The notes: generated from the letters alone by a model not told the origin. A stretch of DNA of 64,000 nt from an uncultured Candidatus Saccharibacteria bacterium (GCA_964360855.1 CAYHXV010000001.1:20042-84041); one strand, 5' to 3'. Counted from the first letter of the stretch, positions 4,223 to 64,000 are shown. Numbers and translations: made by a program.

Positions 4223-6964
4223 TTACTTGATTCGACTAGTAAAGGCTTGTGGATCAATCACCCCAATCATTTCTGGACCCTCGGGAGTCACTCCAACATG
4301 AAACCCCGTACGAGGATCAAACACTGCACTGGTAATCCACTTCTGAGGGATACCGTTGTACATAGTGAGCTTCCCTGCTTCAAAGTATATTTTTTCACCG
4401 GGGTGTTCTCGCGCAAGTTCTTGTACCCGCCTCAAGAATTCGTTATTGGTGGCGTCCCCGCCGCCATACACCAACAGCTGCCTGCCGCCGGGCGCGGACT
4501 CATCCGGCACCCCATACAAGTGGGTCACTGCTGGCTCCACAGGAACCTGGTGTTCGTTTACGAATGGCTCAAGTGCGGACTGTACCGGAGCCTCAGGGGT
4601 AGCTGGGGGTAATTGCTCTGGGGCCGGAGGAGTAACCGTCGCCTGTTCAGGAACTGGTGCTGAGGGTGGAACCTGTTCAGGAACCAGAGCCGCAGGCTCG
4701 CTTGGTAGAGTGCTGTCTAGCTCTTCAGGCTGGGTGAGTGTGTTGTGATCAGAACCATCTACAAACGTCTCAGGAGTAAGTATGGGTGTTCCGCCCGCTT
4801 GTGCACGGTTGAGAGCGGCACTAGGATCTTCAACTGGTGCCGCCGCAACCTCGGGAGAGTGACTTGGTGCCTCCTGAATAGAAGCGTGGTGGCGCAAGTC
4901 TGGCTGCATGGGTCCATCAATGTGCTTGGTCACATACCCGTCCGGAGCTTCAGCGGTTGGTGCAGTGTGTTCAAAAACCAATTGTGGGTCCTTGCCCACC
5001 GCCTGATACCAGACATGCTGGTCGCTATCCACAAAGAGCTTGTCTCCAGGCTGCAGAGTAAGACTCTGTCCATCATGCGCCGCCCCTAGAGCATGCGTGA
5101 GGGCATTGGGGTTTTGCTCTAGGAAGTGTTTCAACTCAGGAGACGCGTGTTCAAGTGTCCCAACTTGGTGCCGCAAATCCACCAACAGTTGTCCGAACCC
5201 TTCTCCTGGTTTGGTACTTACCTCAAGCACTGAAGTGCTTGGTGCAGTTGGGTGCACGGGTGCAGCCTCTGTCCCTGTGTTGAGGGGTGCGCCCTCGTGG
5301 GGGGCTGGGGCTGCTGCTGCAGGCACGTCTAGATCAGTGCCTTGGTGAGTTGGGGTGGCATATTCGTATGATGCTGATGCTCCCCCAAACAGGTGATGGG
5401 TGTCTGGTGCTTCTACGCTGTGCTCGTGTCCCCCAGACGCATGATGACCAAAAAGAAATCCTAAGCCAAGTGAGGTAAAAGCACTTGCAATACGACTCTG
5501 ACGAGCAATTGATTCCTTAACTACAAGTGCCTCTTTTCTCTTTTGAGAAAGACGGCGCAAATTTTTCTCGTCTCCTAAATCACCAAGATCCTTTCGATTA
5601 GAAAGAAGTGCAGAAGCTTTTGTTTCAGTTCCTCGAAAATCATGGCCCTTCTCTATACCCATTTTAACCAGTGCACCAAAAGCACCACCCACACTGGTGA
5701 ACCGAGAAGCGCCTCCAATCCATTTCTTTGCTTCTGGATTCTTGCTTTTTTCTGCCCAAAATCGAAGCGCTGCAGACGTACCCGCAAGACCCAGCGGCGC
5801 AAGTCCAATGACACTTCCGCCAAGAAGGACGCCCGCAGCCGCACCAACACCAAGGAGAGCAGCGGATGTACCAAAAATACGCACTGCCGGAGGAAGTTCC
5901 TTATACCGTTCATAAAACTTATCGAGAGCTTTCTTGTCTCGCTCGTTAAGTCCCTCCTGGCGCTTTTCTAGCTCCCGTTCCTCAAGACCGTCCACAAACG
6001 TGCGCATGGTTACTACGCGTTCATACCGTTCCCGTAGTTTACTTTCATCAATAGAGCCCTTTCCCTTGTATTTCTTTAAACTTTCCAGAACGGCTTCTTT
6101 GGAGCGAGGTCGAAGTGCAAGTCGTGTGTCTAGGGCGGCCTGTTGCGCGGTGTAGTGCTCTGCGCGTGCGCGCACCCAGGCACGTCGTAGGTCCTTAATC
6201 TGAGTTGGAGTACCAAGCTCACCCACATAATTCTCAAGGGCAATGCCCGCAACACCTCGACCCTTGTGATATTCCTTCAACTTCTCGAAGTACAAACTTT
6301 CGGCGTTCTTAGATATTTCTTGCCGTTCCCCAAGTTCGCGCATTCGTCCAGGTACAAATGCCCGAAAAGGGTCTGTGCTTTGTGCTAACCGCGCCTTCTC
6401 ACTTGCAACGGCTTCTTCAAGAGCCGCTCTGGTCTCATGCGCAGTAGCATCTAGCGGTAAACCAGTTTCCGGATCAGAGTCACGCAGCATATCAGAAATA
6501 TCTGCCTTCTTTTCAACGATCTGCTCAACAGGCTCTTCTTGAGCAGTTGGAGCATCATCGAGAGGCACAGTCGGCGACTCTTCTGGTTGCAGCCGCTTCT
6601 TTAGCTTTTCTGGTTTAATTCCAAGAAACTTCGGTTTAGGTCCATCTTTAAAATCTGATTCTTTCTTAGGTGTCCCTCTTTTCCTGCGTGCTGCATCTCG
6701 AGCGCCTTTTGGTTTTCCGCCAAGACTCACGCGCACCTTTTCAGCTTCGTCTTGTATTGTGGGACCATCATTTGATACTGCTGCATTGCGGAGCGCCTCC
6801 TGAGCTCTCTCAAGATCCGTGAGGGGTGCTTTCTCAATCACTACCTCCGGCTGATTGATACCTGCTCGACGCGCCAAATCACTGAGACGATTCAATGGGC
6901 CTGATTCTGGACTCTTGGGTGCCATAGAATTAGGAAAGGTACCGCGCTCTAATAGTGCTTTCAA
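4223..6964 (-). CDS. Large membrane/low-complexity protein (913 aa); putative structural partner of the VirB4-family ATPase
   Basis: Lys/Glu-rich N-terminal ~380 aa. Central hydrophobic segments (IFGTSAALLGVGAAAGVLLGGSVIGLAPLGLAGTSAAL; ASAFTSLGLGFLF). A Pro/Ala/Glu-rich low-complexity region with nucleotide-level short repeats. Globular C-terminal ~100 aa. It overlaps the upstream ATPase gene by 35 nt, suggesting translational coupling. Confidence 0.7.
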   Translation of the reverse strand: MKALLERGTFPNSMAPKSPESGPLNRLSDLARRAGINQPEVVIEKAPLTDLERAQEALRNAAVSNDGPTIQDEAEKVRVSLGGKPKGARDAARRKRGTPKKESDFKDGPKPKFLGIKPEKLKKRLQPEESPTVPLDDAPTAQEEPVEQIVEKKADISDMLRDSDPETGLPLDATAHETRAALEEAVASEKARLAQSTDPFRAFVPGRMRELGERQEISKNAESLYFEKLKEYHKGRGVAGIALENYVGELGTPTQIKDLRRAWVRARAEHYTAQQAALDTRLALRPRSKEAVLESLKKYKGKGSIDESKLRERYERVVTMRTFVDGLEERELEKRQEGLNERDKKALDKFYERYKELPPAVRIFGTSAALLGVGAAAGVLLGGSVIGLAPLGLAGTSAALRFWAEKSKNPEAKKWIGGASRFTSVGGAFGALVKMGIEKGHDFRGTETKASALLSNRKDLGDLGDEKNLRRLSQKRKEALVVKESIARQSRIASAFTSLGLGFLFGHHASGGHEHSVEAPDTHHLFGGASASYEYATPTHQGTDLDVPAAAAPAPHEGAPLNTGTEAAPVHPTAPSTSVLEVSTKPGEGFGQLLVDLRHQVGTLEHASPELKHFLEQNPNALTHALGAAHDGQSLTLQPGDKLFVDSDQHVWYQAVGKDPQLVFEHTAPTAEAPDGYVTKHIDGPMQPDLRHHASIQEAPSHSPEVAAAPVEDPSAALNRAQAGGTPILTPETFVDGSDHNTLTQPEELDSTLPSEPAALVPEQVPPSAPVPEQATVTPPAPEQLPPATPEAPVQSALEPFVNEHQVPVEPAVTHLYGVPDESAPGGRQLLVYGGGDATNNEFLRRVQELAREHPGEKIYFEAGKLTMYNGIPQKWITSAVFDPRTGFHVGVTPEGPEMIGVIDPQAFTSRIK

Positions 6965-9656
6965 CCAACGCGCGATCTCTTCCGTAGGTAAGGAAGGATA
7001 GTTCGCGCAAGTCGTCTACTTGATCTGGATTGCCTGGACGCAGGTCAACCGTCTTCATGTTGAAGGGCTTTTGCGGAACTCCGCCAGAGAGAATACGCAT
7101 ATATGCATTGCGATTCTCAATATTAACGAAGTCGAGAGCGGTGAACACCGGAGCAAACTGTTTTGCAAAGAACTCCGCATCTTCCTCTCCCACGCGAAAT
7201 ACCGCCATGTTGCCCACGTTGCCAAATATAGCTCCCCTAATCTTCTCGTCTACTTGCGCTAAATACTGGTGCGCAATAGTGAGCGAGAGTTTATATTTTC
7301 GAGCTTCAGAAAGAATGCCGGGAATAGAGGAGGTGGTGATGTTCTGGAACTCATCAATGTAGAGGTAGAACGGTGGGAAGTTGGTACCCACTGAGTCTGC
7401 TCGAGAGAGTGCCGCCATGAACAACTTGCCCACAATAATGAGACCGAGGAGGTTAGCGTTTCGCTCTCCCAATCTTCCCTTTGAAAGATTTACCAGCAGA
7501 ATCTTCTTGTTGTCTATAATCTCACGGAACTTAAACGAGGACTCTTGCTGCCCAATGATCGGCCGCATGAAGTCGTTTGAGGTGAACTCATCAATCTTGT
7601 TGGTGATGTAGGGCACTAAATTCTGAAGCGATGCCTCACCCTCGGTCTTGGTGGCAATTTCATTCCAGAACTGATTCACCACCGGGTTGTTGCAGCGAGA
7701 AAGTTTTAGATTCCTAAATTCTGCGTTAGACATCACCCGACCAATGTCCATAAGGGTGGAGCCGGATGCAGGATCCTCCATTACTAACTGTGTTGCATTG
7801 GTGAAATACTGCACGAACATTGGTCCCATTGATTCAGGAACATCGCCATACAACTGTTGGAATATTGCCAGCATCTCATTCACAATGAACGACTTCTGCT
7901 CCGGTCTGCTCGGATCGTACTCAAGCATATTGAGTCCGAACGGTCGGTCTAGGTTTGCGGGATCAAAGTAAATAACATCCTCGTATCGCTCTGGCGGAAT
8001 GCTGGCCAGTACTTCTATAACATCGTTTCCGTGCGGATCGATAAAACAGACGCCATTGCCTGCGCGAATATCCTGATCAATAAGGGTACGGAGCATTCCG
8101 GACTTTCCCGAGCCCGTCTGTCCAATAACATATAAGTGTCGCAACCGGTCCTCTGGTGAAAGACGTATCTCAGATTCTTGTCCACGATAGGTGCTGGTAC
8201 CAAGTATCGTGCCCTCGGTAGGAAGTCCAATAGGAGCAGGGGCGCTCGCTGAGCGGGACTGCTTCAAATGCGGCGAAGACTCAATACCATCGGGAGGGAA
8301 GTGGAATACGGTGGTGAGCTCTCGAAGAGACAGAGGAAGGTTCGTGGCTTTCTCAAATAAACGAAAGGTGAAGTCACGAAAGAAACTCTTGAGACTCCCT
8401 GTATTTGGTCTACGAAATTCAAACCTGTTCCCTTTAGTATTTTCAAACTGATTAAACGGAGCTTCTATTTCAGCAAGGAGCTGCTCCGCACGCTCCTTCT
8501 GCATAGACGAAGCAACGATACGTATATTTGTCTGCACAATGGGAGCCGAGCGTTTTTTCTCCACCTGCTCAATTGCGGCTTCGTCCGTGGGTCGGATCTC
8601 GTCCAACTTTTTCGGAGACACAAACAAGCCTGCCGCCTCGCGAGCAAATTCACCCGCAAGAGTTTCTGGCAATGAAAATGCCCTTCCGCGCTTCTCACCC
8701 TTTCGCAGCTCATGCAGTATGCGCCCATAGTGCTCCACATAGTGGTTGCCGTTTGGTTTGAAGATAATTTGAAGAGACGCGCCCTCGTCCTCGGGAGCAA
8801 TCTTGGCGAAAGCGTTTAGAAGCGCATTCAGTGGGTCATAATCAAAATCCTGGTAGTCTTTGAGGGGCAACATTGGTCTATCTTTGAACTCCGCCACCGA
8901 ACCAGCAGCAGATCCCCCATCAACAAAGACGTTATAGTCGTTTGGTTGTGCTAAGGCCACCGCCTCAGGGAATATGGCATGCAGTTGTTTCTCGAACAGA
9001 TCGCAGCGAGAGTTTGGCACCGAGGCATAAAACATTAAGTGAGAGCGATCCACCGGTACTGCCAACTCAAGCGTCATATACGCGGGCTCACCGCTACGAG
9101 CTGTCTCAAGCGAAAGCATGCCTGAATAAAACTGTTCCATGCCAGAAACCAGTTCCCGCAGGGGGCGCACCCTGTTCCCTTCCTCCGTCTTGTGTTCGGG
9201 AAGCGCTATCTCATACAGCGTCATGTGCAGAGCCTTCCACTCTGGCTGATTCTCTGCGAGTCCCTGTATAGGCATACCGGCAATAAGGTACTGTACGAGG
9301 AAACGGTGGAAGTCGTCGTCCAAGTGCGGACTAGCGAGCTTCTCTAGTACCGCAAAGGCGTTGCGCACCCCTTTCTGTTCTAGCACCCCGCGCAGTTCAT
9401 TAATCGTCTCGTCCGAGCTTGCGGGATCAAGATTAAGGACAAGCTTTTCGGTCTCCTCGTGCGTTAGTGCATACCCCGGTGCAAAGGTATCCTCAGGAGC
9501 CGCGTACCGGTGGTGCACAATACGCTCTCGGGCAACCTCGGTACGTGGCCGTGATTCATTAAGCACTGCAAGTTCTGCTTCCTTGCTCGCAATTTGCTCA
9601 CGCAAATACGCAAGTTCCTCCTCGGGTGAGGTGATTGGGTTCAGGGGCCCTTCCAT
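6930..9656 (-). CDS. VirB4/TraC-like type IV secretion ATPase (FtsK/HerA superfamily; VirB4 vs VirD4 not resolved)
   Basis: 908 aa. Walker A GQTGSGKS is followed by CFIDPHGNDV (a T4SS DPxG motif). Walker B is FYLYIDEFQN. An ARKYKLSLTIAHQ (RK...AHQ) motif is present. The soluble ~500-aa N-terminal domain has no TM helices, which favours VirB4-like over coupling-protein architecture. Confidence 0.75.
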   Translation of the reverse strand: MEGPLNPITSPEEELAYLREQIASKEAELAVLNESRPRTEVARERIVHHRYAAPEDTFAPGYALTHEETEKLVLNLDPASSDETINELRGVLEQKGVRNAFAVLEKLASPHLDDDFHRFLVQYLIAGMPIQGLAENQPEWKALHMTLYEIALPEHKTEEGNRVRPLRELVSGMEQFYSGMLSLETARSGEPAYMTLELAVPVDRSHLMFYASVPNSRCDLFEKQLHAIFPEAVALAQPNDYNVFVDGGSAAGSVAEFKDRPMLPLKDYQDFDYDPLNALLNAFAKIAPEDEGASLQIIFKPNGNHYVEHYGRILHELRKGEKRGRAFSLPETLAGEFAREAAGLFVSPKKLDEIRPTDEAAIEQVEKKRSAPIVQTNIRIVASSMQKERAEQLLAEIEAPFNQFENTKGNRFEFRRPNTGSLKSFFRDFTFRLFEKATNLPLSLRELTTVFHFPPDGIESSPHLKQSRSASAPAPIGLPTEGTILGTSTYRGQESEIRLSPEDRLRHLYVIGQTGSGKSGMLRTLIDQDIRAGNGVCFIDPHGNDVIEVLASIPPERYEDVIYFDPANLDRPFGLNMLEYDPSRPEQKSFIVNEMLAIFQQLYGDVPESMGPMFVQYFTNATQLVMEDPASGSTLMDIGRVMSNAEFRNLKLSRCNNPVVNQFWNEIATKTEGEASLQNLVPYITNKIDEFTSNDFMRPIIGQQESSFKFREIIDNKKILLVNLSKGRLGERNANLLGLIIVGKLFMAALSRADSVGTNFPPFYLYIDEFQNITTSSIPGILSEARKYKLSLTIAHQYLAQVDEKIRGAIFGNVGNMAVFRVGEEDAEFFAKQFAPVFTALDFVNIENRNAYMRILSGGVPQKPFNMKTVDLRPGNPDQVDDLRELSFLTYGRDRALVESTIRARYLS

Positions 9657-43936: not shown

Positions 43937-43989
43937 AGGTTGTGCCGTTATTTCAGGCTCATGATAGCATCCACTGTATTAGTACGCAC

Positions 43990-44817
43990 ATGAGCTCCCT
44001 GCCCCTAGTATGCGTCGTTGGACCCACCGCTTCGGGCAAGTCTGCTCGGGCGATTAGCCTTGCCAAAGAGCTAAACGGTGAAGTTATTTCAGTAGACTCA
44101 CGCCAGGTATACCGAACACTCGATATTGGTACTGAGAAGCTTTCTCAAGAGGAGATGGAGGGAATCCCTCATCATCTTATCGATATCAAAGACCCCCGAG
44201 AAACCTATAGCGCACAAGAATTTGTGGAAGACGCCACGCACCTCATAGCTGAAATTCAAGCACGGGGAAAGCGCCCCATACTTGCGGGAGGAACGCACTT
44301 TTATTTCGAAGCATTGTTGTATGGACTTCCCGAAACTCAGAAGCCAGACCCGGAACTGCGAACGGCGCTTGAACTGCTCCCAACCGAAGAGCTGGTGCGA
44401 CGCATTCAGGAAAGCGACCCGCATCGTGCAGAGCGCATAGATCTGCAGAACCGCAGACGACTGGTGCGCTCGCTTGAGATAATTGCGGAGCATGGGCATG
44501 TTCCTCTGCGCAATACAGAGAACCCTCGGTACGAAGTTGAATGGGTGGTGATTAACCCTGAGAGAGAGGTATTGCGCGAGCGCATTGGTATTCGTCTAGA
44601 GAGCGCATTTGAACGAGGTCTTGTGGAAGAAGTACGAAGGGTACGTGAGTATGTGGGGGACACTCGACTGAATGAACTTGGTCTTGAGTATCGGGTTATT
44701 GGAGAATACTTGCGTGGTGAGCGGAGTGAAGACTCCTTACTCCCAACCCTGCACTCGAAACTCTGGCATTACGCCAGGCATCAGAAGGCGTGGTTGCGAA
44801 AGTTACTTCTAGACTAG
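43990..44817 (+). CDS. miaA: tRNA dimethylallyltransferase
   Basis: Start MSSLPLVCVVGPTASGKSARAI (P-loop) ... VDSRQVYRTLDIGTEK are MiaA motifs. Confidence 0.85.
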   Translation: MSSLPLVCVVGPTASGKSARAISLAKELNGEVISVDSRQVYRTLDIGTEKLSQEEMEGIPHHLIDIKDPRETYSAQEFVEDATHLIAEIQARGKRPILAGGTHFYFEALLYGLPETQKPDPELRTALELLPTEELVRRIQESDPHRAERIDLQNRRRLVRSLEIIAEHGHVPLRNTENPRYEVEWVVINPEREVLRERIGIRLESAFERGLVEEVRRVREYVGDTRLNELGLEYRVIGEYLRGERSEDSLLPTLHSKLWHYARHQKAWLRKLLLD

Positions 44818-44818
44818 T

Positions 44819-45769
44819 TCAATACAACGAGAAGTGGCTTCCGGTTATGTGCCCATATCCGTTATCGCTCTTACAATACGCAGATATTCCTTTTGCTCGA
44901 GCAGCGTCACGGAGTGCGCAATCAAAAGTCTCAAAGACGGGACGTAGTCCCGCCAGCTGCGCTGCTGCAGCAAAGGAAGCAATGTTTGCAGCTGTATAGG
45001 TGGTGGGACTTCTGAACGAAGCATCAATACAGGTCCCATTCGCGTGGCATTTGTTGGTATGTGTTGACGTCGGAGGGAATGCCTCCGTTACCACCCAGGT
45101 GCCATTAAAGGTGGTATTGAGTTTCCCTATCTTTGGTGCAACGTTAGGATCAAGAGTGCAGTTGTTCGTGCACGTCACTCCATACGTCTTTAGTGAGACA
45201 CACGTAGGACATCCGGCAGTTCCGGTAGTGGTGCCTCCCGGCGTCGGTGTATTGACCACGAGCTGAGCGGCAGTAATTGCTCCAGAGAAAAGCTTCTGTG
45301 TTTCTGATTCCACAACGCAGGCCGAACCATTCCGCAATATACTATTCCACGGCCCCCACCCCGACTCGTTTGGGTTGTATAGCGTCTTCATAACAAAATC
45401 AACCATGAGCCAGGCGGTGAGCATGATGAGTAGCCCAATCGCCGCATTCCCGAGCATCTTCTTTGCACTACTGCGCGCTTCGGGATTGACTCCAGAAATA
45501 ATAAATAGGAACCCTGCCCACGCAATGATGATGGTGAAAATAAGAACACCAAATGAGATGCCAACGTTAATGAAGCGCTGTGCTATTTCCATAACTGCAC
45601 CAAAGGACAATGGAGCACCCTCAGGGCATGCAGGATCTATGTCGTGTGCACTGGGAACAATGTGGAAATTACTATCCAAGCTTGTTCCACTTGCCGCATG
45701 TGCAAAAGGCACCGCTACAGTACTGCCAAGCAATATGAGGAGGGTGATTACTAGTGTTCGGATATGCAT
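44819..45769 (-). CDS. Secreted TrbC/VirB2-like pilin module fused to Cys-rich C-terminal domain of unknown function
   Basis: Signal peptide. The N-terminal ~150 aa are paralogous to 46318..47322 (GISFGVLIFTIIIAWAGFLFI...NPEARS.AKKML.NAAIGLLIMLTAWLMVDFVMK.LY...WGPWNSIL). The C-terminal 150 aa are Cys-rich (CPTCVS...C.NNC...KCHANGTC) and end ...YGHITGSHF. Confidence 0.6.
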   Translation of the reverse strand: MHIRTLVITLLILLGSTVAVPFAHAASGTSLDSNFHIVPSAHDIDPACPEGAPLSFGAVMEIAQRFINVGISFGVLIFTIIIAWAGFLFIISGVNPEARSSAKKMLGNAAIGLLIMLTAWLMVDFVMKTLYNPNESGWGPWNSILRNGSACVVESETQKLFSGAITAAQLVVNTPTPGGTTTGTAGCPTCVSLKTYGVTCTNNCTLDPNVAPKIGKLNTTFNGTWVVTEAFPPTSTHTNKCHANGTCIDASFRSPTTYTAANIASFAAAAQLAGLRPVFETFDCALRDAARAKGISAYCKSDNGYGHITGSHFSLY

Positions 45770-45772
45770 ACG

Positions 45773-46321
45773 CTAAGGGAGCTTCACCGCACCCGGACAG
45801 AAACTGAGTCCAAGATTCTCATACTGCGAGTACACCTCACTCACGTCTGGCGTCACCGATATAATCGTATTTAAACTACAGAGCTCGCTATCCGAGAGCG
45901 CAAGCAAGTTTCTCAAGTACGTTTGTGCTTCTAACCGAGCTGCTCCAATAGGCTCGGCAATAAGTATTATGAGAAATTGTGAATCAGATTCAGAATACTG
46001 AATCGAGAAGGTGAATCCTTCGGTAGAATATTCCGGTCCGTATAAGTTATAGAATCGCCCACCAGGGGTATCCAGTGGTTCTTTTCCAGACAAGACGTTG
46101 GGTACCATTACCGCTTCTCCACTCCTCGCATGGACACTCATCGTCTTTGGCACGTACGTGGTGCTTCCTCCAGGATTCAGAATTCCTCCAAAGGGATTGA
46201 GAGGTTGCGTGCTCCCTGGTGACTGCCGTCCAAACATCTGAAGGCCCACATAGCCAAGTACACCAATACTCAGAACAATGAGCACGACCGCAACCACAAT
46301 AATAAGTCTCTGCTTCGTCAT
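45773..46321 (-). CDS. Membrane-anchored hypothetical protein in the pilin-fusion operon
   Basis: N-terminal TM (LIIVVAVVLIVLSIGVLGYVGL). Stop/start overlaps with both flanking genes. Confidence 0.55.
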   Translation of the reverse strand: MTKQRLIIVVAVVLIVLSIGVLGYVGLQMFGRQSPGSTQPLNPFGGILNPGGSTTYVPKTMSVHARSGEAVMVPNVLSGKEPLDTPGGRFYNLYGPEYSTEGFTFSIQYSESDSQFLIILIAEPIGAARLEAQTYLRNLLALSDSELCSLNTIISVTPDVSEVYSQYENLGLSFCPGAVKLP

Positions 46322-47322
46322 GGTAGTAATGATACCCCACGAGTAATCAGTGTCTGAAGAGCAAGTGGCAGTGGCGTGGAGCCTGCGTCAGCGAGCCCAC
46401 ACTTCCCTGCAGTAGACCACTCCTTCCAGCCGGTGCGCTTGTTGGTCGCAACCGCTTCGGCAATATTGGCACTCGCGGTCTTTGCTGCCGCCACACAGCG
46501 CGCGTAAAGTGCTTCATCCTTCACTCTCGCGGTATAGTTTTTGCCCGTAAAGGCGGAAGGGCAGTTAAGTCCCGCGACAGAATGGTAGGTGAGATTTATT
46601 TGAAATAGACCAAAAGAGAATGCGCGACGTTGAGGATCGTTATGCATGTAGTCACTACCACTAACGCGTTGCACAACACCGCCACTCTCGGCATAGCAAA
46701 TTTGTGCAGCCTGTCTCGCGGTTTCCTCAGAACCAAAAGCTGCAATGAAATTAGTATACGCACACGCTCCACTGGTGGGTATCCGACAACTCCCCGGTCC
46801 TCCTCCTGCCACTCCTGGAGTGCCGCCAGAGGTAGAGAGCTCTGCGGCGGTGATGGCGCCACTGAAGAGCGGTATTGTTTCAAATGAGGTCACACACATG
46901 TCGCCCCCGGTGAGGATACTGTTCCAGGGTCCGAACTCTCCCTTGGTACCATCAGGTCCGCTATAGAGCGCCTTCATAACAAAGTCCACAATAAGCCATG
47001 CGGAGAGCACAATGAGAAGTCCAACAGCAGCATTTATAAGCATCTTGTTTGCTTGGCTTCGAGCCTCGGGGTTTGCAGGTGTGGTGATATAGAGAAACCC
47101 GGCCCACGCAATGATGATAACGGCAAATAAAACACCTATCGATATCCCCCCGTTCACCAGGTTCTGAACGGTTCCTAATACTCCTGCAAATCCGCAGGGG
47201 CACGCTCTGCAGGCTTCGGGTACCAAGCTCCACCCAGAAGAAAGAAAGGGCATATCTGCAGCTGCCACAGAAAGCGGAAGCACACTGAGTGTTAGTAGGG
47301 AGAGAGCCCGCAACCGATTCAT
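46318..47322 (-). CDS. Secreted TrbC/VirB2-like pilin module fused to lytic transglycosylase/lysozyme-like domain (VirB1-like)
   Basis: Signal peptide plus an N-terminal two-helix pilin-like module paralogous to 44819..45769. C-terminal QICYAESGG...FGLFQIN...Y fits SLT/goose-lysozyme-family catalytic motifs (E-S ... GLMQ-like). Confidence 0.6.
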   Translation of the reverse strand: MNRLRALSLLTLSVLPLSVAAADMPFLSSGWSLVPEACRACPCGFAGVLGTVQNLVNGGISIGVLFAVIIIAWAGFLYITTPANPEARSQANKMLINAAVGLLIVLSAWLIVDFVMKALYSGPDGTKGEFGPWNSILTGGDMCVTSFETIPLFSGAITAAELSTSGGTPGVAGGGPGSCRIPTSGACAYTNFIAAFGSEETARQAAQICYAESGGVVQRVSGSDYMHNDPQRRAFSFGLFQINLTYHSVAGLNCPSAFTGKNYTARVKDEALYARCVAAAKTASANIAEAVATNKRTGWKEWSTAGKCGLADAGSTPLPLALQTLITRGVSLLP

Positions 47323-55176: not shown

Positions 55177-55248
55177 GGCCCAGTGGTGAAGCAGAAACAC
55201 GACTGATTGCAAACCAGTTATGCGCGGGTGCGATTCCCGCCTGGGCCT
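55177..55248 (+). tRNA. tRNA-Cys (anticodon GCA), non-canonical D and T loops
   Basis: Perfect acceptor GGCCCAG/CTGGGCC with discriminator U. Anticodon loop TTGCAAA. T-arm GCGGG-TGCGATT-CCCGC, with G where U55 is expected. 3-bp D stem and D-loop AGCAGAA without GG. Confidence 0.55.
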
Positions 55249-55276
55249 CAAACAAGTGTGGTATCTTCCTCTTTAG

Positions 55277-55362
55277 GCTGGGGTGATGGAATGGTAGACA
55301 TAGAGGACTTAAACTCCTCAGGCAGCAATGCCGTGCGGGTTCAAGTCCCGCCCCCAGCACCA
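55277..55362 (+). tRNA. tRNA-Leu (anticodon TAA), CCA encoded
   Basis: Acceptor GCTGGGG/CCCCAGC. Anticodon stem GAGGA/TCCTC with loop CTTAAAC. Long variable arm. T-arm GCGGG-TTCAAGT-CCCGC. Confidence 0.8.
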
Positions 55363-55368
55363 ATAGCT

Positions 55369-58797: not shown

Positions 58798-59043
58798 CTA
58801 GGGTGCGCCCACCGTCTGCTTAATAACCGCAATGATGGCATTGGCACCAAATAAAATAACGAGTCCAATGATGCCCCACAACATATGCTGCTGCCCCACC
58901 TTTCGTTTCTCATCATTATCGGCTCCTGCAATAAACTGCACCACCCCCCATGCAAAAAGCACGAATGCAGAAAGCGACAAGAGAACAACGATAGGCATCA
59001 GTATCGCCAATTCTATTTTGGTGAGAAATTGTTGGTATGTCAT
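58798..59043 (-). CDS. TrbC/VirB2-like pilin paralog 1 (81 aa)
   Basis: Two hydrophobic helices flank an acidic/basic loop (FVLFAWGVVQFIAGADNDEKRKVGQQHMLWGIIGLVILFG). Paralogous to the four genes upstream. Confidence 0.55.
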   Translation of the reverse strand: MTYQQFLTKIELAILMPIVVLLSLSAFVLFAWGVVQFIAGADNDEKRKVGQQHMLWGIIGLVILFGANAIIAVIKQTVGAP

Positions 59044-59110
59044 AGGTATATTCTAGCAAACGACCGCACCAAAAAGCGCGGTCGTCCACAGAGAAACTCG
59101 GTTTTCACTC

Positions 59111-59473
59111 CTATCGATTCACATTCGTTGGTGCCGTTGGGTAACTTGGTGTGCGGCTATTTAGATTAACCGAACCGGTAAGGATACTCACCAATCCCCA
59201 TACCGATACCATCACAAAGAACCCAATGAGTCCGTAGAGCATAAGTGCTCTACCTTTCTCTTTTGCTGCCTCATCATTGGCACCAATAATGAACACTTGG
59301 AACACGCCCCAAATGAACACAATAAACGCAAGAGCAAATACCACCGGCACTGCAACAGTGTTGATAAGACCAATTATAAAGGCACCGACATCCTGAACAC
59401 TTCCAACTGTAGTCTGGGCTGCCGCAAGAAATGGCAACGCAAGCAAGGCACCAATAAATCCGAGTTTCTTCAT
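59111..59473 (-). CDS. TrbC/VirB2-like pilin paralog 2 (120 aa, signal peptide)
   Basis: MKKLGFIGALLALPFLAAAQ signal peptide, then VVFALAFIVFIWGVFQVFIIGANDEAAKEKGRALMLYGLIGFFVMVSVWGLV. Confidence 0.6.
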   Translation of the reverse strand: MKKLGFIGALLALPFLAAAQTTVGSVQDVGAFIIGLINTVAVPVVFALAFIVFIWGVFQVFIIGANDEAAKEKGRALMLYGLIGFFVMVSVWGLVSILTGSVNLNSRTPSYPTAPTNVNR

Positions 59474-59557
59474 AGAGAATAGTTAGCTAGATACCTCTAT
59501 AGGATAGACCAGCTGTGGTAAGCGTCAATAGAGTAATGCGTGTACTGGGGAAAACTG

Positions 59558-60043
59558 TTAAATGGATATAAGGGGGTTACTTGAGGACGGTGGCACTTCA
59601 GCTGGTGCTGGATCATTGTTAGGGACAATAGTTTCAAACACATTCTTGTTTTGTGACTCAGTCCCAGCTTTCTGGGTTCCCTGCCCAAAGGTGGGAAAGT
59701 CTGGCGTTCGGTTGTCCAGGTTCCCAAATAAACTTCCGAACAAATTAACGAGTCCCCAAATAGAAATCATCACCGCAAATCCAATAACAGACCAGAGTAC
59801 AAACTTTGCTCCTTCCTTGCGTTTCTCCTCATTTGCACCATTCAATATAAATGCTTGAAAGACACCCCAAATAAATACTATGAACGCAATGGCAAATACC
59901 ACCGGTACCACTACCGTATTTAGGATGCCAATGATGGAAGCTGAAATATCTTCTATAGGGGCCGTGTTCAGTCCTCCAGACTGCGCAGACGCTGAAGGAG
60001 CTCCGAGTACCAGAGCGAGTACGATAAAAAGGTATTTTTTCAT
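59558..60043 (-). CDS. TrbC/VirB2-like pilin paralog 3 (signal peptide; extended C-terminal tail)
   Basis: Start at MKKYLFIVLALVLGAPSASA. Core VVFAIAFIVFIWGVFQAFILNGANEEKRKEGAKFVLWSVIGFAVMISIWGLV is near-identical in pattern to paralog 2. Confidence 0.6.
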   Translation of the reverse strand: MKKYLFIVLALVLGAPSASAQSGGLNTAPIEDISASIIGILNTVVVPVVFAIAFIVFIWGVFQAFILNGANEEKRKEGAKFVLWSVIGFAVMISIWGLVNLFGSLFGNLDNRTPDFPTFGQGTQKAGTESQNKNVFETIVPNNDPAPAEVPPSSSNPLISI

Positions 60044-60092
60044 ATATCCATAGCCTAGCAGGCAACGGGTCTCGCGCAAGACGTTATCCCAC

Positions 60093-60332
60093 CTAGGCGG
60101 GCAGTACGCTCAGCAAGAGCCGTACAATACCCCACACACCAAATAGCACCACAAACCCTATCATGCCCCACAACATGAACACTCTTCCTTTTTGTCTCCC
60201 TTCCTCACCCTCCATAAAGAAGAACCGCACCATACCAATGAGGAAGAGCAGGAAGGCAAGGGCATACAATAGCGGCATCACCGCCGTGTCTACTACCTTC
60301 ACCAAACTATCAACCAATTGCGCAAAGGTCAT
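60093..60332 (-). CDS. TrbC/VirB2-like pilin paralog 4 (79 aa)
   Basis: LLYALAFLLFLIGMVRFFFMEGEEGRQKGRVFMLWGMIGFVVLFGVWGIV. Start overlaps the stop of paralog 5. Confidence 0.55.
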   Translation of the reverse strand: MTFAQLVDSLVKVVDTAVMPLLYALAFLLFLIGMVRFFFMEGEEGRQKGRVFMLWGMIGFVVLFGVWGIVRLLLSVLPA

Positions 60333-60730
60333 CGTAAGGAATCAACGGTAGAACCAATCACCATGCCAATGGTTTGGGCTCCCAGAAGCACCAACCCACC
60401 TATCACCGTCCACATAAGCGCACTGCGCGCGTTCTTAAGCTCCTCTTCTTTTCCTTGTGCCTTAACAAACAGGAAGCCAACATAAACAATAGCGAGGGTA
60501 AGCACAATGGTACCTAGCTGCACCACCGCACCTAAGATGGCATCGAGAAAGTCAGGGAGCGAGTTAATACTGTTGAGCGGGTTGGTAAGGCCACCACCAC
60601 CTGATTCTGGAGCACTAGGAGCGCCTACAGAACTCGTTGCACTGAGGACAAGATGTGGACCCAAAAAACTGAAAGTTAGAAACACTGCCAGGAATCCTAC
60701 CGTACGAAGTGTTTGTAAAAAGTGTTTCAT
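60329..60730 (-). CDS. TrbC/VirB2-like pilin paralog 5 (133 aa, signal peptide)
   Basis: Signal peptide, Gly-rich spacer, then TIVLTLAIVYVGFLFVKAQGKEEELKNARSALMWTVIGGLVLLGAQTIGMV. Start overlaps the stop of the SBP-fold gene. Confidence 0.55.
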   Translation of the reverse strand: MKHFLQTLRTVGFLAVFLTFSFLGPHLVLSATSSVGAPSAPESGGGGLTNPLNSINSLPDFLDAILGAVVQLGTIVLTLAIVYVGFLFVKAQGKEEELKNARSALMWTVIGGLVLLGAQTIGMVIGSTVDSLR

Positions 60731-62028
60731 TTAAATGTTGCGCTAATAGCCTGATCAAGCGTACCAAGAGCGTCGGACACTCCCTGTCGCCCACTCGTCA
60801 CACTACTCACCATGGTAGCAAAGAGAGTGTCCGTCTTTAGTGGTGCTGGGGACAGCCATCCGCGCGCCACCAGTGCCTGCGGGAAATACACGGACTCATA
60901 CAAGTCACCCTGTGCAGGAATAAGTAGCGCACGCTGTGCAGGAACCATGTGGAGTGCACGCGCCAGTGTTGGCAATACCTCTGAAGCAGATAATGCGTAC
61001 GCAGTACGCAGAGCTCCTTCAGGATTAGCAGAGGCCTTAGGTATAGCAAATCCATATATGCGACCATACGTGGTACGGGTTTCAGAAGTAGCGGGGTGCG
61101 GGACTGATGCCATATCAAAGTCTAAGTTTGGATTCCCTGCAGCAATAAGAGACACCTCAGATGCAAACCCAAAGTAGAGGGAGAGGTCACCAGCGAGAAA
61201 CGCCTGTCGGTCTCCCGCAATGCTTCGATTCCAGCTGTAGCTAGTCTTCGCGGGATTTGCAAACTGTAGATAGTAGTTCAATGCAGACACCGCAGGCGAA
61301 GGGCCAGCACTGTCTCCCACGGGGCGGGTAAGCGTTGCCGAGATACTGTCTAGAGTTCGCTCGGTAATAGAGTACCCGGACTGTAACAATAGAAGTGACA
61401 CCACTGCCCGCGCATTCTCACTATTTTCGTATGCACCAAATGCCAGACCACTTCGCACAATCGCTCCTGAAGCATCTTGGCGGGTAAGTACCGGAGACAA
61501 GCCCGCCACTGCTTCCCACGTCGGAGGAGCCACTGCAGCTCCCACACTTGCTAGGTGTGTGCGGTTGTAATACAGGACGAGGGGGTCAAGCACAAACGGT
61601 ATGGCATAGGCGCCCTTGCCCGCGAGAAAGAGTTCCGCCTCGGGTAGATAGGTATCCCGGAAGGTACGCTCACTGGTAGCAGAATTCGAAATGAGTTGAA
61701 TTTTGTTTTGTTCAGCCGCAAGTTGCTCTTGTGAAATAAGAATTAAATCGGGACCATTTCCAGAAGCAATTGCGTCAGACAATTGCTCGTCAAATGTGCT
61801 TAGTTGTTTTTCCTCATAGGACACTTTGGCAAGCTCCCCATGTGTCTGCTTTAAGGTAGCCAGTGCCTCCTGCATCGTTCGCGCGGGCAGGGTGCCCCAC
61901 ACAGTAACTGGCCCCACGGGCTTCACGCCGCCAGTAAATCCTTGGAAGTTTGCAAAGAGAAACAAGCCCACCAGTGCGGTAATACCAAACACCGCCATGA
62001 GAATTATTTGAAAGGGTTTCATTTGCAT
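60727..62028 (-). CDS. Extracellular solute-binding-protein-fold protein (family 1-like), first gene of the pilin array operon
   Basis: N-terminal TM/signal anchor. A segment (GPDLILISQEQL...YAIPFVLDPLVLYYNRTHL) resembles sugar-type ABC substrate-binding proteins. No adjacent permease or ATPase genes. Confidence 0.45.
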   Translation of the reverse strand: MQMKPFQIILMAVFGITALVGLFLFANFQGFTGGVKPVGPVTVWGTLPARTMQEALATLKQTHGELAKVSYEEKQLSTFDEQLSDAIASGNGPDLILISQEQLAAEQNKIQLISNSATSERTFRDTYLPEAELFLAGKGAYAIPFVLDPLVLYYNRTHLASVGAAVAPPTWEAVAGLSPVLTRQDASGAIVRSGLAFGAYENSENARAVVSLLLLQSGYSITERTLDSISATLTRPVGDSAGPSPAVSALNYYLQFANPAKTSYSWNRSIAGDRQAFLAGDLSLYFGFASEVSLIAAGNPNLDFDMASVPHPATSETRTTYGRIYGFAIPKASANPEGALRTAYALSASEVLPTLARALHMVPAQRALLIPAQGDLYESVYFPQALVARGWLSPAPLKTDTLFATMVSSVTSGRQGVSDALGTLDQAISATFK

Positions 62029-63012: not shown

Positions 63013-64000
63013 TTATAGCGCTACCATACTGGCAATCGAATCCCCCTCCCGCATCTTCATAATACGAACACCCTGAGTGGCACGGGAGAGACTTGGAATC
63101 TCACCCGTGGACACTCGTATTACCTGCCCCTTCTTTGATATCACCACGATCTCTTCCTCCTCACTCTTCCCGCCAACCAACACCTTTGCCCCAATAATGC
63201 TTCCGGTCTTTGCAGTTACGTCTGCAGTCTTAATACCTGAACCTCCGCGTCCCTGTATTTTGTATTCGCTCAGTAGGGTCTTCTTGCCATAGCCCTTATC
63301 CATAAGGATAAGAAGGGTAGCTCCCTTAGCTTCAGCCGGGACTACCTCCGCAGAGACAATCCGATCTCCCTTCTTAACGGTCATACCGCGGACTCCTGCG
63401 GCCGTGCGCCCCATGGCGCGGGTCTCCCCTTCGTCAAAGCGAATACTTTGTCCGGCACTCGTCACAATAGATACGCTGTCTCCTTCACTCGTGAGTTGTG
63501 CCGTCACTAACTTGTCTGAGCCCTTAAGGGCAATAGCAATGATGCCCGAACGGCGCACGTCAGCGAAGTTCTTGGCTTCCACCTTCTTCACCACTCCTTC
63601 CTGCGTCACAAAGAATACCGAAAGCGCGTCCCGAGCGGCGCCCTTCGGCACGGCCAGCACACTGGTTACCTTCTCATCACTTGCAATAGAGAGGAAGTTC
63701 ATAATGGACTTGCCCTTCGTTGCGCGCTTGCCTTCCGGAAGCTCGTACATCTTGAGCTGATATGCCTTGCCGTAGTCGGTGAAGAAGAGGAGGTCAGAAT
63801 GCGCGCTTGCTGAGAGGAAGTGGGTCACCACATCCTCTTCCTTGGTAGACATATCAATCACGCCAATGCCGCCGCGCTTCTGTGCTTTGTATTCGTCCGG
63901 GTTGGCGCGCTTCACGTACCCGCCTTGGGTCAGCACCAGTACACTCTCCTCGTCTGGAACGAGATCTTCTACGGAAATATTCTTCACCCCGCTCTTCACG
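63013..64000 (-). CDS. gyrA: DNA gyrase subunit A, C-terminal beta-pinwheel domain (gene continues beyond window end)
   Basis: A GyrA-box-like QKRGGIG is followed by repeated blades (VLTQGGYVKR...; LFFTDYGKAYQLK...; FFVTQEGVVKK...; IVTSAGQSIRF...; ILMDKGYGKK...; VVISKKGQVIRV...). Confidence 0.75.
   Translation of the reverse strand, partial: VKSGVKNISVEDLVPDEESVLVLTQGGYVKRANPDEYKAQKRGGIGVIDMSTKEEDVVTHFLSASAHSDLLFFTDYGKAYQLKMYELPEGKRATKGKSIMNFLSIASDEKVTSVLAVPKGAARDALSVFFVTQEGVVKKVEAKNFADVRRSGIIAIALKGSDKLVTAQLTSEGDSVSIVTSAGQSIRFDEGETRAMGRTAAGVRGMTVKKGDRIVSAEVVPAEAKGATLLILMDKGYGKKTLLSEYKIQGRGGSGIKTADVTAKTGSIIGAKVLVGGKSEEEEIVVISKKGQVIRVSTGEIPSLSRATQGVRIMKMREGDSIASMVAL

What the first reader, a model, noticed from the sequence alone, without database searches (positions are those of the whole stretch)
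44819..47322. Operon of two secreted proteins that fuse a VirB2-like pilin module to enzymatic/Cys-rich domains (one VirB1-like lytic transglycosylase)
Seen in sequence: ORFs 46318..47322 and 44819..45769 share a paralogous N-terminal ~150 aa (signal peptide, CxxC/C pair, two-helix pilin-like module GIS.GVL...IIIAWAGFL.I...NPEARS..KML.NAA.GLLI.L.AW..VDFVMK.LY...GPWNSIL) but have unrelated C-termini. The first carries AESGG...FGLFQIN...Y, matching the catalytic E-S and GLMQ-type motifs of SLT/goose-lysozyme lytic transglycosylases, which is the VirB1 function. The second carries a Cys-rich domain ending ...YGHITGSHF. A TM-anchored 182-aa protein is sandwiched between them, with overlapping stops and starts. 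Inference: in canonical T4SSs, VirB1 (peptidoglycan lysis) and VirB2 (pilin) are separate polypeptides. A covalent fusion would place the cell-wall-cutting activity on the pilin-like scaffold. That would be a notable architectural variant, possibly acting on the peptidoglycan of a host cell.
Basis: partly seen in the sequence, partly recalled or inferred. Interest (0 to 1): 0.8.

Follow-up and report, generated by a model that had tools for sequence, protein, structure and literature searches.

The report
Pilin-anchored cell-wall hydrolase gene cassette
An uncultured ultrasmall (Patescibacteria) bacterium carries a conserved three-gene cassette in which a conjugation-type pilin module is fused to a lysozyme-like enzyme in one protein and to a zinc peptidase in another, an arrangement I found in no paper and which may explain how these epibionts cut through cell walls.

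Summary
ORFs 46318..47322 (A, 334 aa) and 44819..45769 (C, 316 aa) share a 143-aa N-terminal module (56% identity, E 3e-44). It consists of a signal peptide and a two-helix hairpin. The hairpin matches Pfam PF18895 T4SS_pilin above threshold and is homologous to the five small pilins at 58.8-60.7 kb (hhalign 98-98.7%).

The cassette pilin-glycosidase / 180-aa membrane protein B / pilin-peptidase recurs in about 40 of 74 species-level Paceibacteria loci, usually between clpB and miaA. The glycosidase stays constant. The peptidase domain is swapped among at least six sequence families.

The cassette is never next to a T4SS ATPase. In one lineage, however, pilin-SLT plus B lies inside a small-pilin array.

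Best reading: these are modular VirB2-type pilins that tether or present peptidoglycan hydrolases. Their target, own wall or host wall, is unresolved. VirB1 membership is not shown. This is a new variant of a known kind, with interest about 0.65.

The parts
46318..47322 (-). Gene A: modular pilin-glycosidase, 334 aa
   Evidence: ORF. PF18895 at 40.6 bits against a 26.6 cut-off; PF18896 SLT_3 at 19.1 bits against 27. 366 homologues found.
47254..47322 (-). A: Sec-type signal peptide, about aa 1-23 (MNRLRALSLLTLSVLPLSVAAAD)
   Evidence: Hydrophobic segment 4-27. AF2 helix 3-23. The cleavage site is inferred.
46963..47190 (-). A: two-helix pilin hairpin, aa 45-120, with an NPE-containing loop at 81-96
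   Evidence: AF2 helices 45-80 and 85-120. PF18895 matches residues 51-115. hhalign to small pilins: prob 98%, E 2e-13. NF045849 pilin-like conjugal transfer protein, 37.7 bits.
46783..46962 (-). A: conserved post-TM segment with invariant C143, followed by a low-confidence Gly/Pro/Thr-rich linker (aa 121-180)
   Evidence: pLDDT 39-57 over residues 121-180. Invariant C143.
46387..46782 (-). A: lysozyme-like (SLT_3-type) catalytic domain, aa 181-312; invariant E212, G238, Q241 and conserved Cys at 179, 187, 209, 254, 276, 308 (four invariant, two at 92%)
45773..46321 (-). Gene B: bitopic membrane protein, 182 aa. N-terminal TM helix, then an extracytoplasmic domain with invariant R129, C148, C175 and a C-terminal GLSFCPGAxxLP. 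Function unknown.
   Evidence: ORF. Single hydrophobic segment 1-31. 35-sequence alignment. No Pfam, NCBIfam or PDB relative. 901 cluster representatives, nearly all stand-alone. Follows the pilin-SLT gene in nearly all loci.
44819..45769 (-). Gene C: modular pilin-peptidase, 316 aa
   Evidence: ORF. PF18895 at 32.3 bits against a 26.6 cut-off. 149 homologues found.
45377..45604 (-). C: two-helix pilin hairpin, aa 56-131
   Evidence: AF2 helices 56-91 and 96-131, pLDDT 82-95. hhalign to small pilins: prob 98.7%, E 1.5e-16.
44822..45217 (-). C: LAS (Hedgehog/DD-peptidase) zinc-peptidase-fold domain, aa 185-316. Putative Zn triad H242-x6-D249 ... H312. Invariant E229, H237, E280. Conserved Cys at 187, 190, 200, 204, 241, 247, 284, 299.
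58798..60730 (-). Related element: array of five small VirB2-like pilin genes (81, 120, 173, 79 and 133 aa) downstream of an SBP_bac_1 gene
   Evidence: PF18895 hits at 25.9-33.4 bits. These are the homologues of the A and C N-terminal modules. The locus is syntenic with L072, where pilin-SLT plus B sits inside the array.
6930..9656 (-). Possible partner, uncertain: 908-aa VirB4/VirD4-superfamily ATPase (DUF87 + TraG-D_C)
   Evidence: Pfam DUF87 5.5e-7 and TraG-D_C 6e-6. Only weak TraD/VirD4-like NCBIfam hits. It lies 37 kb from the cassette.

Best explanation
A-B-C is a conserved, chromosomally fixed Paceibacteria (Parcubacteria) cassette. It encodes two 'modular' VirB2-type pilins.

**Architecture of A and C.** Each has a Sec signal peptide and a two-helix PF18895 pilin hairpin. 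A conserved Cys-containing segment and a flexible linker of about 40-60 residues follow. The C-terminus is a disulfide-rich extracytoplasmic enzyme domain. A carries a lysozyme-like glycan-strand-cleaving domain, either a muramidase or a lytic transglycosylase. C carries a LAS-family zinc peptidase that should cut the peptide stem or cross-link.

**Proposed mechanism.** After insertion and signal-peptide cleavage, the hairpin sits in the membrane like a VirB2 propilin, with both ends outside. The enzymes are therefore tethered facing the wall. Because the anchor is a pilin module, the T4SS/pilus assembly machinery recruits them or incorporates them as minor subunits. Glycan and peptide bonds are then cut exactly where the pilus or channel must cross peptidoglycan. 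The wall in question could be the cell's own, the host's, or both. B, the always-adjacent bitopic protein, is a partner or regulator of the glycosidase.

**Shown:** architecture, homologies, folds, conserved catalytic residues, cassette conservation, domain swapping.

**Inferred:** topology, enzymatic activity, coupling to the T4SS or pilus, target wall, role of B.
For: **Paralogous N-termini:**

**Pilin identity of the N-terminal module**
- PF18895 above gathering score for both proteins.
- TrbC/VirB2 hits in 10/83 and 18/58 orthologues.
- NF045849 hit.
- hhalign to the window's small pilins: 98% and 98.7%.
- Hairpin in the AF2 models.
- Three hydrophobic segments.

**Glycosidase**
- Invariant E212, G238, Q241.
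- 56/83 orthologues hit SLT_3.

**Peptidase**
- H242 in at least 90% of sequences; D249 and H312 invariant.
- A Pfam VanY domain occupies the same gene position in other genomes.

**Cassette conservation**
- Same synteny in three look-ups.
- 37 canonical cassettes plus variants among 74 species loci.

**Link to the pilus system**
- In L072, pilin-SLT (PF18896 39.4 bits, PF18895 36.4 bits) and a B homologue (hhalign 99.6%) lie inside a small-pilin array.
- That array sits in the GyrA-SBP locus, syntenic with the window's own pilin array.
- L073 and L078 show similar adjacency.

**Precedent.** In Southlakia epibionticum the T4SS cluster encodes a lysozyme-like/cysteine-peptidase protein and a protein with a Hedgehog/DD-peptidase domain next to virB4. 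Both are essential (PMC10633639 supplements; PMC12102498). Gram-positive T4SSs use membrane-anchored glycosidase+peptidase hydrolases (PMC12102498).
Against: - No VirB4/VirD4-like gene lies within +/-6 kb of the cassette in any of 74 loci. In the window the nearest such ATPase is 37 kb away.
- The usual neighbours are housekeeping genes: clpB, miaA, prx, parB, relA, topA.
- PMC12102498 reports that in Paceibacteria other VirB1 homologues are already associated with virB4. This cassette is therefore not needed to fill a missing VirB1 role.
- No T4SS pilus has yet been seen in Patescibacteria. PMC12857230 speaks only of a 'potential to elaborate conjugative pili'.
- Fold searches return generic helical hairpins, not conjugative pilins, for the N-terminal module.
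- The relative domain arrangement is uncertain (pTM 0.48-0.50).
- No enzymatic activity has been measured.
Confidence: 0.55

Rival explanations
1. A and C are housekeeping autolysins. They remodel the cell's own peptidoglycan during growth and division. The pilin hairpin has been exapted as a two-helix membrane anchor, and there is no functional link to the T4SS or a pilus.
For: The cassette is single-copy and sits at a fixed position among housekeeping genes: clpB, NUDIX, miaA, prx, parB, relA/spoT, topA. It is never next to a T4SS ATPase. The window encodes alanine racemase, so the organism probably builds its own peptidoglycan. A glycosidase plus peptidase pair is typical of autolysin sets (general knowledge).
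Against: The anchor remains recognisably a full pilin module, including the loop motif, and stays homologous to co-resident small pilins. In L072, L073 and L078 the pilin-SLT/B genes lie within or beside small-pilin arrays. An enzyme acting on the cell's own conserved wall gives no obvious reason for repeated replacement of the peptidase by unrelated families among close relatives.
Confidence: 0.28
2. A and C are polymorphic antibacterial effectors. A conserved N-terminal delivery module, the pilin, carries swappable cell-wall-degrading toxin domains against hosts or competitors. B is the immunity protein.
For: The C-terminal domain of the third gene is exchanged at the linker among at least six families: VanY, C-type LAS, 'hxh', 'm15x' and two Cys-His clusters. 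One DUF4329 case is also known from the homologue search, with no locus position determined. Meanwhile the N-terminal module stays 64-79% identical. B is extracytoplasmic and membrane-anchored, as many peptidoglycan-hydrolase immunity proteins are (the comparison rests on general knowledge). Bacteria-killing T4SSs that deliver peptidoglycan hydrolases exist (PMC6536674, listed; not read).
Against: No gene that co-varies with the swapped domain follows the third gene; convergent miaA abuts it. B precedes the variable gene and is conserved whatever the peptidase type. The locus is single-copy and syntenic, with no orphan toxin or immunity cassettes. The glycosidase is invariant. Two TM helices argue for membrane retention unless the protein is extracted by a pilus machinery.
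Confidence: 0.12
3. The C-terminal domains are non-catalytic peptidoglycan-binding or adhesion modules. They would be pseudo-enzymes, as in Hedgehog-type ligand domains, used only to attach to a wall.
For: The top fold matches for C are Hedgehog signalling domains, which are not known as peptidases in that role. The window's A scores below the SLT_3 gathering threshold.
Against: The catalytic Glu (E212) and GLxQ are invariant in 83 sequences. The H-x6-D...H zinc triad and further acidic and His residues are conserved across 58 sequences: D249 and H312 are invariant, and H242 is present in at least 90%. Bona fide VanY domains replace the C-type domain in other genomes.
Confidence: 0.05

Closest known systems
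VirB2/TrbC-like T4SS pilins of Patescibacteria (Pfam PF18895; pilin arrays of Southlakia epibionticum SEML1_0014-0019; PMC10633639, PMC12102498)
   Same: The N-terminal modules of A and C match the same profile above threshold. They share the signal peptide, the two hydrophobic helices and the charged loop. They are homologous to the five small pilins in the same window.
   Different: Described pilins are about 80-180 aa with no extra domain and are often near virB4. A and C carry a C-terminal linker plus enzyme domain of about 190 aa and lie away from any T4SS ATPase. None of the papers searched or read mentions such fusions.
VirB1-type and Gram-positive T4SS cell-wall hydrolases (VirB1; PrgK of pCF10, TraG of pIP501, TrsG/CD419 profiles), as summarised in PMC12102498
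   Same: They provide membrane-tethered glycan-cleaving plus peptide-cleaving activities associated with a conjugation-type apparatus in monoderms. The domain is lysozyme/SLT-like with a catalytic Glu.
   Different: Those enzymes are single polypeptides with a simple TM anchor and SLT + CHAP domains, encoded inside the T4SS operon. Here the two activities sit on two polypeptides, each on a pilin hairpin. The glycosidase belongs to SLT_3 rather than SLT (PF01464 not matched). The peptidase is LAS-type. The genes are not in a T4SS operon.
Southlakia epibionticum SEML1_0006 (lysozyme-like x2 + cysteine proteinase) and SEML1_0007 (1113 aa, C-terminal Hedgehog/DD-peptidase), next to virB4 and essential (PMC10633639 supplement)
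   Same: They show the same pairing of a lysozyme-like enzyme with a Hedgehog/DD-peptidase-fold enzyme in a patescibacterial T4SS context.
   Different: The Southlakia proteins are large, and the supplement lists no pilin module for them. They are encoded directly beside virB4. No sequence comparison with A or C was run.
LAS metallopeptidases (MEROPS M15: VanX, VanY, LdcB; MepA; phage L-alanoyl-D-glutamate peptidases; Hedgehog N-domain)
   Different: No Pfam, NCBIfam or PDB sequence-level match exists. hhalign to the VanY-type paralogues is negative. The domain has about 8 conserved cysteines and ends in an H-x4-H (GHITGSHF) rather than HxH or ExxH.
Modular type IV pilins (e.g. Streptococcus sanguinis PilB and PilC; PMC8179133)
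   Same: The design principle is the same. A functional module is grafted by a linker onto the C-terminus of a small pilin module, probably for presentation by a filament.
   Different: That is an unrelated pilin superfamily: type IV pilins with a class III signal peptide, assembled by T4P machinery. The modules described there are mostly adhesive, not peptidoglycan hydrolases. Presentation by a filament is unproven here.

Membership tests
VirB2/TrbC-like T4SS pilin (PF18895 / PF04956) | Profile match above the curated threshold | tested here: met
   PF18895: A 40.6 bits and C 32.3 bits against a 26.6 cut-off. 82/83 and 55/58 orthologues match. TrbC hits reach 4.4e-7 in orthologues.
VirB2/TrbC-like T4SS pilin (PF18895 / PF04956) | Signal peptide followed by two hydrophobic helices joined by a short charged loop | tested here: met
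   Hydropathy segments. AF2 helices 45-80/85-120 in A and 56-91/96-131 in C.
VirB2/TrbC-like T4SS pilin (PF18895 / PF04956) | Small protein with no additional globular domain | tested here: not met
   A is 334 aa and C is 316 aa. Each has a well-folded C-terminal enzyme domain of about 130 aa.
VirB2/TrbC-like T4SS pilin (PF18895 / PF04956) | Encoded with T4SS genes (virB4 neighbourhood) or in a pilin array | tested here: inconclusive
   No VirB4-like hit within +/-6 kb in 74 loci. However, pilin-SLT plus B lies inside a small-pilin array in L072 and beside small pilins in L073 and L078.
VirB2/TrbC-like T4SS pilin (PF18895 / PF04956) | Polymerises into a T4SS pilus | not testable with these tools
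   Needs microscopy or biochemistry. Fold searches gave only generic hairpin matches.
VirB1 / family-1 lytic transglycosylase (PF01464 SLT) | SLT profile match | tested here: not met
   The window protein has no PF01464 hit. Only 3 of 83 orthologues hit it at E <= 0.01.
VirB1 / family-1 lytic transglycosylase (PF01464 SLT) | Lysozyme-like fold with catalytic Glu (E-S) and a GLxQ motif | tested here: met
VirB1 / family-1 lytic transglycosylase (PF01464 SLT) | Encoded within a T4SS gene cluster | tested here: not met
VirB1 / family-1 lytic transglycosylase (PF01464 SLT) | Produces 1,6-anhydro-MurNAc (non-hydrolytic cleavage) | not testable with these tools
   Needs muropeptide analysis. The nearly invariant D224 and S236 leave both chemistries open.
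PF18896 SLT_3 lysozyme-like domain | Profile match above the gathering score | tested here: inconclusive
   The window protein scores 19.1 bits against a 27 cut-off. 56/83 orthologues match at E <= 0.01, best 6.4e-9. The L072 orthologue scores 39.4 bits.
LAS zinc peptidases (M15 / Hedgehog-DD-peptidase fold) | LAS fold | tested here: met
LAS zinc peptidases (M15 / Hedgehog-DD-peptidase fold) | Conserved H-x(3-6)-D and a downstream His as zinc ligands | tested here: met
   H242 is present in at least 90% of sequences; D249 and H312 are invariant in 58. The assignment is by motif, not by structural superposition.
LAS zinc peptidases (M15 / Hedgehog-DD-peptidase fold) | Sequence-profile membership in a named family (VanY, Peptidase_M15_x) | tested here: not met
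   No such Pfam hit at E <= 0.1 in any of 58 members. No NCBIfam or PDB hit. hhalign to the VanY-type paralogues is negative.
Polymorphic toxin / immunity system | Conserved N-terminal module with variable C-terminal enzymatic domain | tested here: met
Polymorphic toxin / immunity system | Cognate immunity gene immediately downstream that co-varies with the toxin domain | tested here: not met
   Convergent miaA follows the variable gene. B lies upstream and is conserved whatever the domain type.

The most novel reading that the evidence does not exclude
The T4SS pilus of Paceibacteria is a 'tooled' filament. Minor VirB2-type pilins carry a universal glycan-cutting enzyme and an exchangeable peptide-cutting enzyme on flexible linkers. 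The pilus can thus bore through the host's cell wall at the epibiont-host contact. The swappable peptidase module would be matched to the host's peptidoglycan chemotype and so act as a host-range determinant. B would protect or gate the producer's own wall.
Probability: 0.2. Interest if true: 0.85.

Novelty: new variant of a known kind. Interest (0 to 1): 0.65.

Why it matters
Patescibacteria are a very large share of bacterial diversity, and the cultivated ones live attached to host cells. Their T4SS and VirB2-like pilins are essential in the one species tested genetically (PMC10633639). What the system does, and how it crosses two cell walls, is unknown (PMC12102498, PMC12857230).

A conserved cassette that joins the pilin module covalently to a glycosidase and to interchangeable peptidases gives a concrete, testable mechanism for wall penetration or remodelling. 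It also offers a candidate marker of host specificity.

It extends the 'modular pilin' idea from type IV pili to conjugation-type pilins. It defines two uncharacterised families as well: the Cys-rich LAS domain of C and protein B, which has 901 cluster representatives.

Tried and rejected
- **PDB sequence-profile searches** for A, C and B families found nothing meaningful.
- **Pfam and NCBIfam** gave no family for C's C-terminal domain or for B.
- **Foldseek against PDB** with the C model returned only weak Hedgehog hits and generic hairpins, with no conjugative pilin. Fold search therefore cannot confirm the pilin identity.
- **Promoter and terminator scan** of 44.6-47.6 kb was not above chance.
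- **tblastn of A** against 72,556 plasmids and 50,697 phage records found no match. The fusion is thus not a known plasmid, ICE or phage gene in those sets.
- **hhalign between the alternative peptidase clusters** was negative, except C-type against 'hxh' at 79%. I do not claim they are one family. Calling 'hxh' and 'm15x' LAS-like and 'chapA/B' Cys-His peptidases rests only on motifs, plus a weak NlpC/P60 hit at E 0.03.
- **The 908-aa ATPase** at 6930..9656 could not be assigned to VirB4 or VirD4.
- **The adjacent 913-aa protein** has no family hit. Reading its sequence shows no LAS motif.
- **Gene-calling artefact or chance similarity** is rejected, given conservation across 74 species loci.
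Full report
**1. Observation**

Three co-directional minus-strand ORFs occupy 44819-47322: A (46318..47322, 334 aa), B (45773..46321, 182 aa) and C (44819..45769, 316 aa).
- A and B overlap by 4 nt. B and C are separated by 3 nt.
- C ends 1 nt from the convergent miaA gene (43942..44817).
- BLASTP of A against C gives 56% identity over 143 N-terminal residues, E 3e-44, with no similarity afterwards.
- Hydropathy shows a signal-peptide-like segment plus two long hydrophobic segments in A (4-27, 52-83, 92-121) and in C (1-26, 62-96, 105-131). B has a single N-terminal segment.

The one correction is that only the A/B junction overlaps.

**2. The shared N-terminal module is a VirB2-like pilin module**

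- Both proteins match Pfam PF18895 (T4SS_pilin) above the gathering score: 40.6 and 32.3 bits against 26.6.
- The five small genes at 58798-60730 match the same family.
- A profile of small pilins aligns to the A family at 98% probability (E 2e-13) and to the C family at 98.7% (E 1.5e-16). Each alignment covers the whole 76-78-column hairpin.
- Some orthologues also hit TrbC/VirB2 (PF04956), down to 4.4e-7.
- A nearly reaches NCBIfam NF045849, 'pilin-like conjugal transfer protein' (37.7 bits against 40).
- AlphaFold2 models show the hairpin: A helices 45-80 and 85-120, C helices 56-91 and 96-131.

Two caveats apply.
- Structure searches return only generic helical hairpins for this part, so the pilin identity rests on sequence profiles.
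- 'Pilin' for PF18895 in Patescibacteria is itself inferred from gene neighbourhood and essentiality. No pilus has been observed (PMC12102498, PMC12857230).

**3. C-terminal domain of A**

- An 83-sequence alignment of full-length homologues has invariant E212 (in AESGG), G238 and Q241 (GLFQIN). It also has conserved cysteines, four invariant and two at 92%.
- The window protein scores below threshold on PF18896 SLT_3 (19.1 bits against 27). However, 56 of 83 orthologues match at E <= 0.01 (best 6.4e-9), and three match PF01464 SLT.
- Residues 181-310 are modelled at pLDDT above 90.

A lysozyme-like fold with a conserved catalytic Glu is therefore supported. Whether the chemistry is hydrolytic or lytic-transglycosylase cannot be decided. 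Membership of VirB1/SLT proper is not met.

**4. C-terminal domain of C**

- No Pfam, NCBIfam or PDB sequence match exists.
- The domain is modelled at pLDDT above 90.
- In 58 orthologues D249 and H312 are invariant and H242 is nearly so. H242-A-N-G-T-C-I-D249 reproduces the VanY-type H-x-x-G-x-A-x-D zinc motif.

C is therefore a pilin module fused to a divergent, Cys-rich LAS zinc peptidase.

**5. The cassette is conserved and the peptidase is swappable**

- Homologues are all from Patescibacteria/Paceibacterota MAGs.
- Three context look-ups show the same order: clpB ... (NUDIX) - pilin-SLT - ~180-aa protein - pilin-peptidase - miaA (convergent) - prx - parB - relA/spoT - topA. The window has the same order.
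- A scan of one genome per GTDB species found 198 related stretches and returned 74 distinct loci.
- HMM annotation of their ORFs gave 37 canonical pilin-SLT/B/pilin-X cassettes, plus variants with two B genes or permuted order.
- X was 'm15x' (11), VanY (10), 'hxh' (9), the C-type LAS (4) or two Cys-His clusters (3). In the homologue search, one pilin-module paralogue (P0092) carries DUF4329. Its locus position was not determined.
- These domain clusters are mutually undetectable by hhalign, except C-type against 'hxh' at 79%. Only VanY and DUF4329 are recognised by Pfam.
- Third-gene N-terminal modules 64-77% identical to C carry 'hxh' or VanY domains. Loci that share C's LAS type have N-terminal modules only 40-56% identical (see also P0152, P0149 and P0164). 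The C-terminal domain has therefore been replaced repeatedly at the linker.
- The glycosidase and B stay constant.

**6. Protein B**

- B follows the pilin-SLT gene almost everywhere.
- It has an N-terminal TM helix, a variable linker and a conserved domain of about 110 aa. R129, C148 and C175 are invariant, and the C-terminus reads GLSFCPGAxxLP.
- It has no relative in Pfam, NCBIfam or the PDB.
- A search of 1.84 billion representatives found 901 relatives (263 at E <= 1e-10). Nearly all are stand-alone proteins of 150-220 aa.
- Its function is unknown. I infer a partner or regulator of the glycosidase.

**7. Relation to the T4SS**

*Against a direct link.*
- No VirB4/VirD4-like gene lies within 6 kb of the cassette in any locus.
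- The window's only such ATPase (6930..9656; DUF87 + TraG-D_C, weak TraD/VirD4 hits) is 37 kb away.
- PMC12102498 reports other VirB1 homologues near virB4 in Paceibacteria.

*For a link.*
- In L072 the order is GyrA - PD-(D/E)XK - SBP_bac_1 - pilin - pilin-SLT - B homologue - pilin - pilin - pilin.
- There the pilin-SLT protein scores PF18896 39.4 bits and PF18895 36.4 bits. The B homologue aligns at hhalign 99.6%.
- The window's small-pilin array lies in the syntenic locus: GyrA (63013..63999) - methyltransferase - SBP_bac_1 (60727..62028).
- In another lineage the fused pilin and B are thus members of the ordinary pilin array. L073 and L078 show B or pilin-SLT beside small pilins.
- In the only genetically studied patescibacterium, the T4SS cluster encodes a lysozyme-like/cysteine-peptidase protein (SEML1_0006) and a Hedgehog/DD-peptidase-containing protein (SEML1_0007) next to virB4. 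Both are essential (PMC10633639 supplement). The same two activities are paired there.

**8. Mechanism**

*Shown:* architecture, homologies, folds, conserved catalytic residues, cassette conservation, domain swapping.

*Inferred:*
- Sec insertion and signal-peptide cleavage give a hairpin with both ends outside. This follows from the order of one cleavable signal peptide and two TM helices, the basic inter-helix loop, and the many conserved cysteines in the C-terminal domains.
- A disordered linker of about 40-60 residues (pLDDT below 60) tethers the enzyme toward the wall.
- The pilin module recruits the enzymes to the pilus or T4SS assembly site, or incorporates them as minor subunits.

The contrast between a constant glycosidase and a variable peptidase parallels peptidoglycan chemistry. 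My own knowledge is that the glycan backbone is universal while stems and cross-links vary between taxa. This mildly favours a target that differs between lineages, such as host walls, but non-orthologous displacement is an alternative.

My confidences:
- about 0.85 that these are membrane-tethered peptidoglycan-cleaving enzymes on pilin-derived anchors;
- 0.55 that they work with the pilus or T4SS;
- about 0.2 that they are pilus-borne tools against the host wall.

Rivals are housekeeping autolysins (0.28), polymorphic toxin with B as immunity (0.12) and non-catalytic binding modules (0.05).

**9. Comparison and novelty**

The parts are known kinds: VirB2-like pilins, lysozyme-like glycosidases, LAS peptidases and T4SS-associated wall hydrolases. 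What is new is their covalent combination, the three-gene cassette with B, and the modular exchange of the peptidase.
- Full-text searches and reading of the two most relevant recent papers found no mention of such fusions.
- Public annotations call the fused proteins 'pilin' or 'hypothetical protein'.
- The domain co-occurrence is visible in precomputed Pfam annotations (for example P0008, P0009, P0109), so it is in the databases but not interpreted.
- The closest conceptual precedent is the modular type IV pilin (PMC8179133), in an unrelated pilin superfamily.

Verdict: new variant of a known kind, interest 0.65.

Noticed in passing
window 58798-62028 (- strand): Five tandem, divergent small PF18895 pilin genes (81, 120, 173, 79 and 133 aa) lie directly downstream of an SBP_bac_1 solute-binding-protein gene (60727..62028), with gyrA at 63013..63999. 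The same GyrA-SBP-pilin-array arrangement recurs in L072. The conserved SBP-pilin linkage is unexplained.
   Followed up: partly
window 4223-9656 (- strand): A 908-aa DUF87 + TraG-D_C ATPase (weak TraD/VirD4-like hits) overlaps by 35 nt a 913-aa ORF. By eye that ORF is charged and Pro/Ala-rich, and it has no Pfam or NCBIfam family. No VirB3/PrgI or VirB6 gene was recognised beside them. Whether this is the VirB4 or the coupling protein of the organism's T4SS is undecided.
   Followed up: partly
A residues ~36-43 and C143; C residue ~48 and C151 (window 46894-47217 and 45317-45628): 82/83 A-type and 57/58 C-type proteins have at least one Cys in the mature N-terminal segment before helix 1. All have an invariant Cys just after helix 2. 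A disulfide could staple the two outer ends of the hairpin, reminiscent of head-to-tail cyclisation of TrbC/VirB2 pilins (own knowledge). No coordinates were available to check this.
   Followed up: partly
L014, L034, L042, L070: Cassette variants. L014 has pilin-hxh, B, pilin-SLT, B. L034 has pilin-hxh directly before pilin-SLT, B. L042 and L070 have two tandem B genes. L050, L054, L055, L075 and L077 have only a single pilin-peptidase gene beside miaA.
   Followed up: no
P0092; P0093/P0149 and P0094/P0098 clusters: Pilin modules also occur fused to DUF4329 (E 3.5e-19). They are fused as well to two unclassified Cys...His domains that look CHAP/NlpC-P60-like by motif (only a weak NlpC_P60 hit, E 0.03). 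The range of cargo domains on this pilin module may be wider than sampled here.
   Followed up: partly
window 55207-56517 (+): An alanine racemase gene (Pfam 1e-48 and 2e-31). Its mechanically called ORF start runs across tRNA-Cys and tRNA-Leu, so the true start is probably near 55369. Its presence suggests the organism makes D-Ala for its own peptidoglycan.
   Followed up: no
L005-L078 record titles: Many loci with typical Paceibacteria synteny are labelled 'uncultured Candidatus Saccharibacteria', and a few 'Bdellovibrionales', 'Bacillota' or 'Rectinemataceae' (the last). These look like automatic or erroneous taxonomic labels. The class-level distribution of the cassette should be re-derived from GTDB taxonomy.
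   Followed up: no
window 45773-46321 and 901 relatives: Protein B defines a large, unnamed family of small bitopic proteins with an invariant Arg and Cys pair. It is absent from Pfam and NCBIfam.
   Followed up: partly
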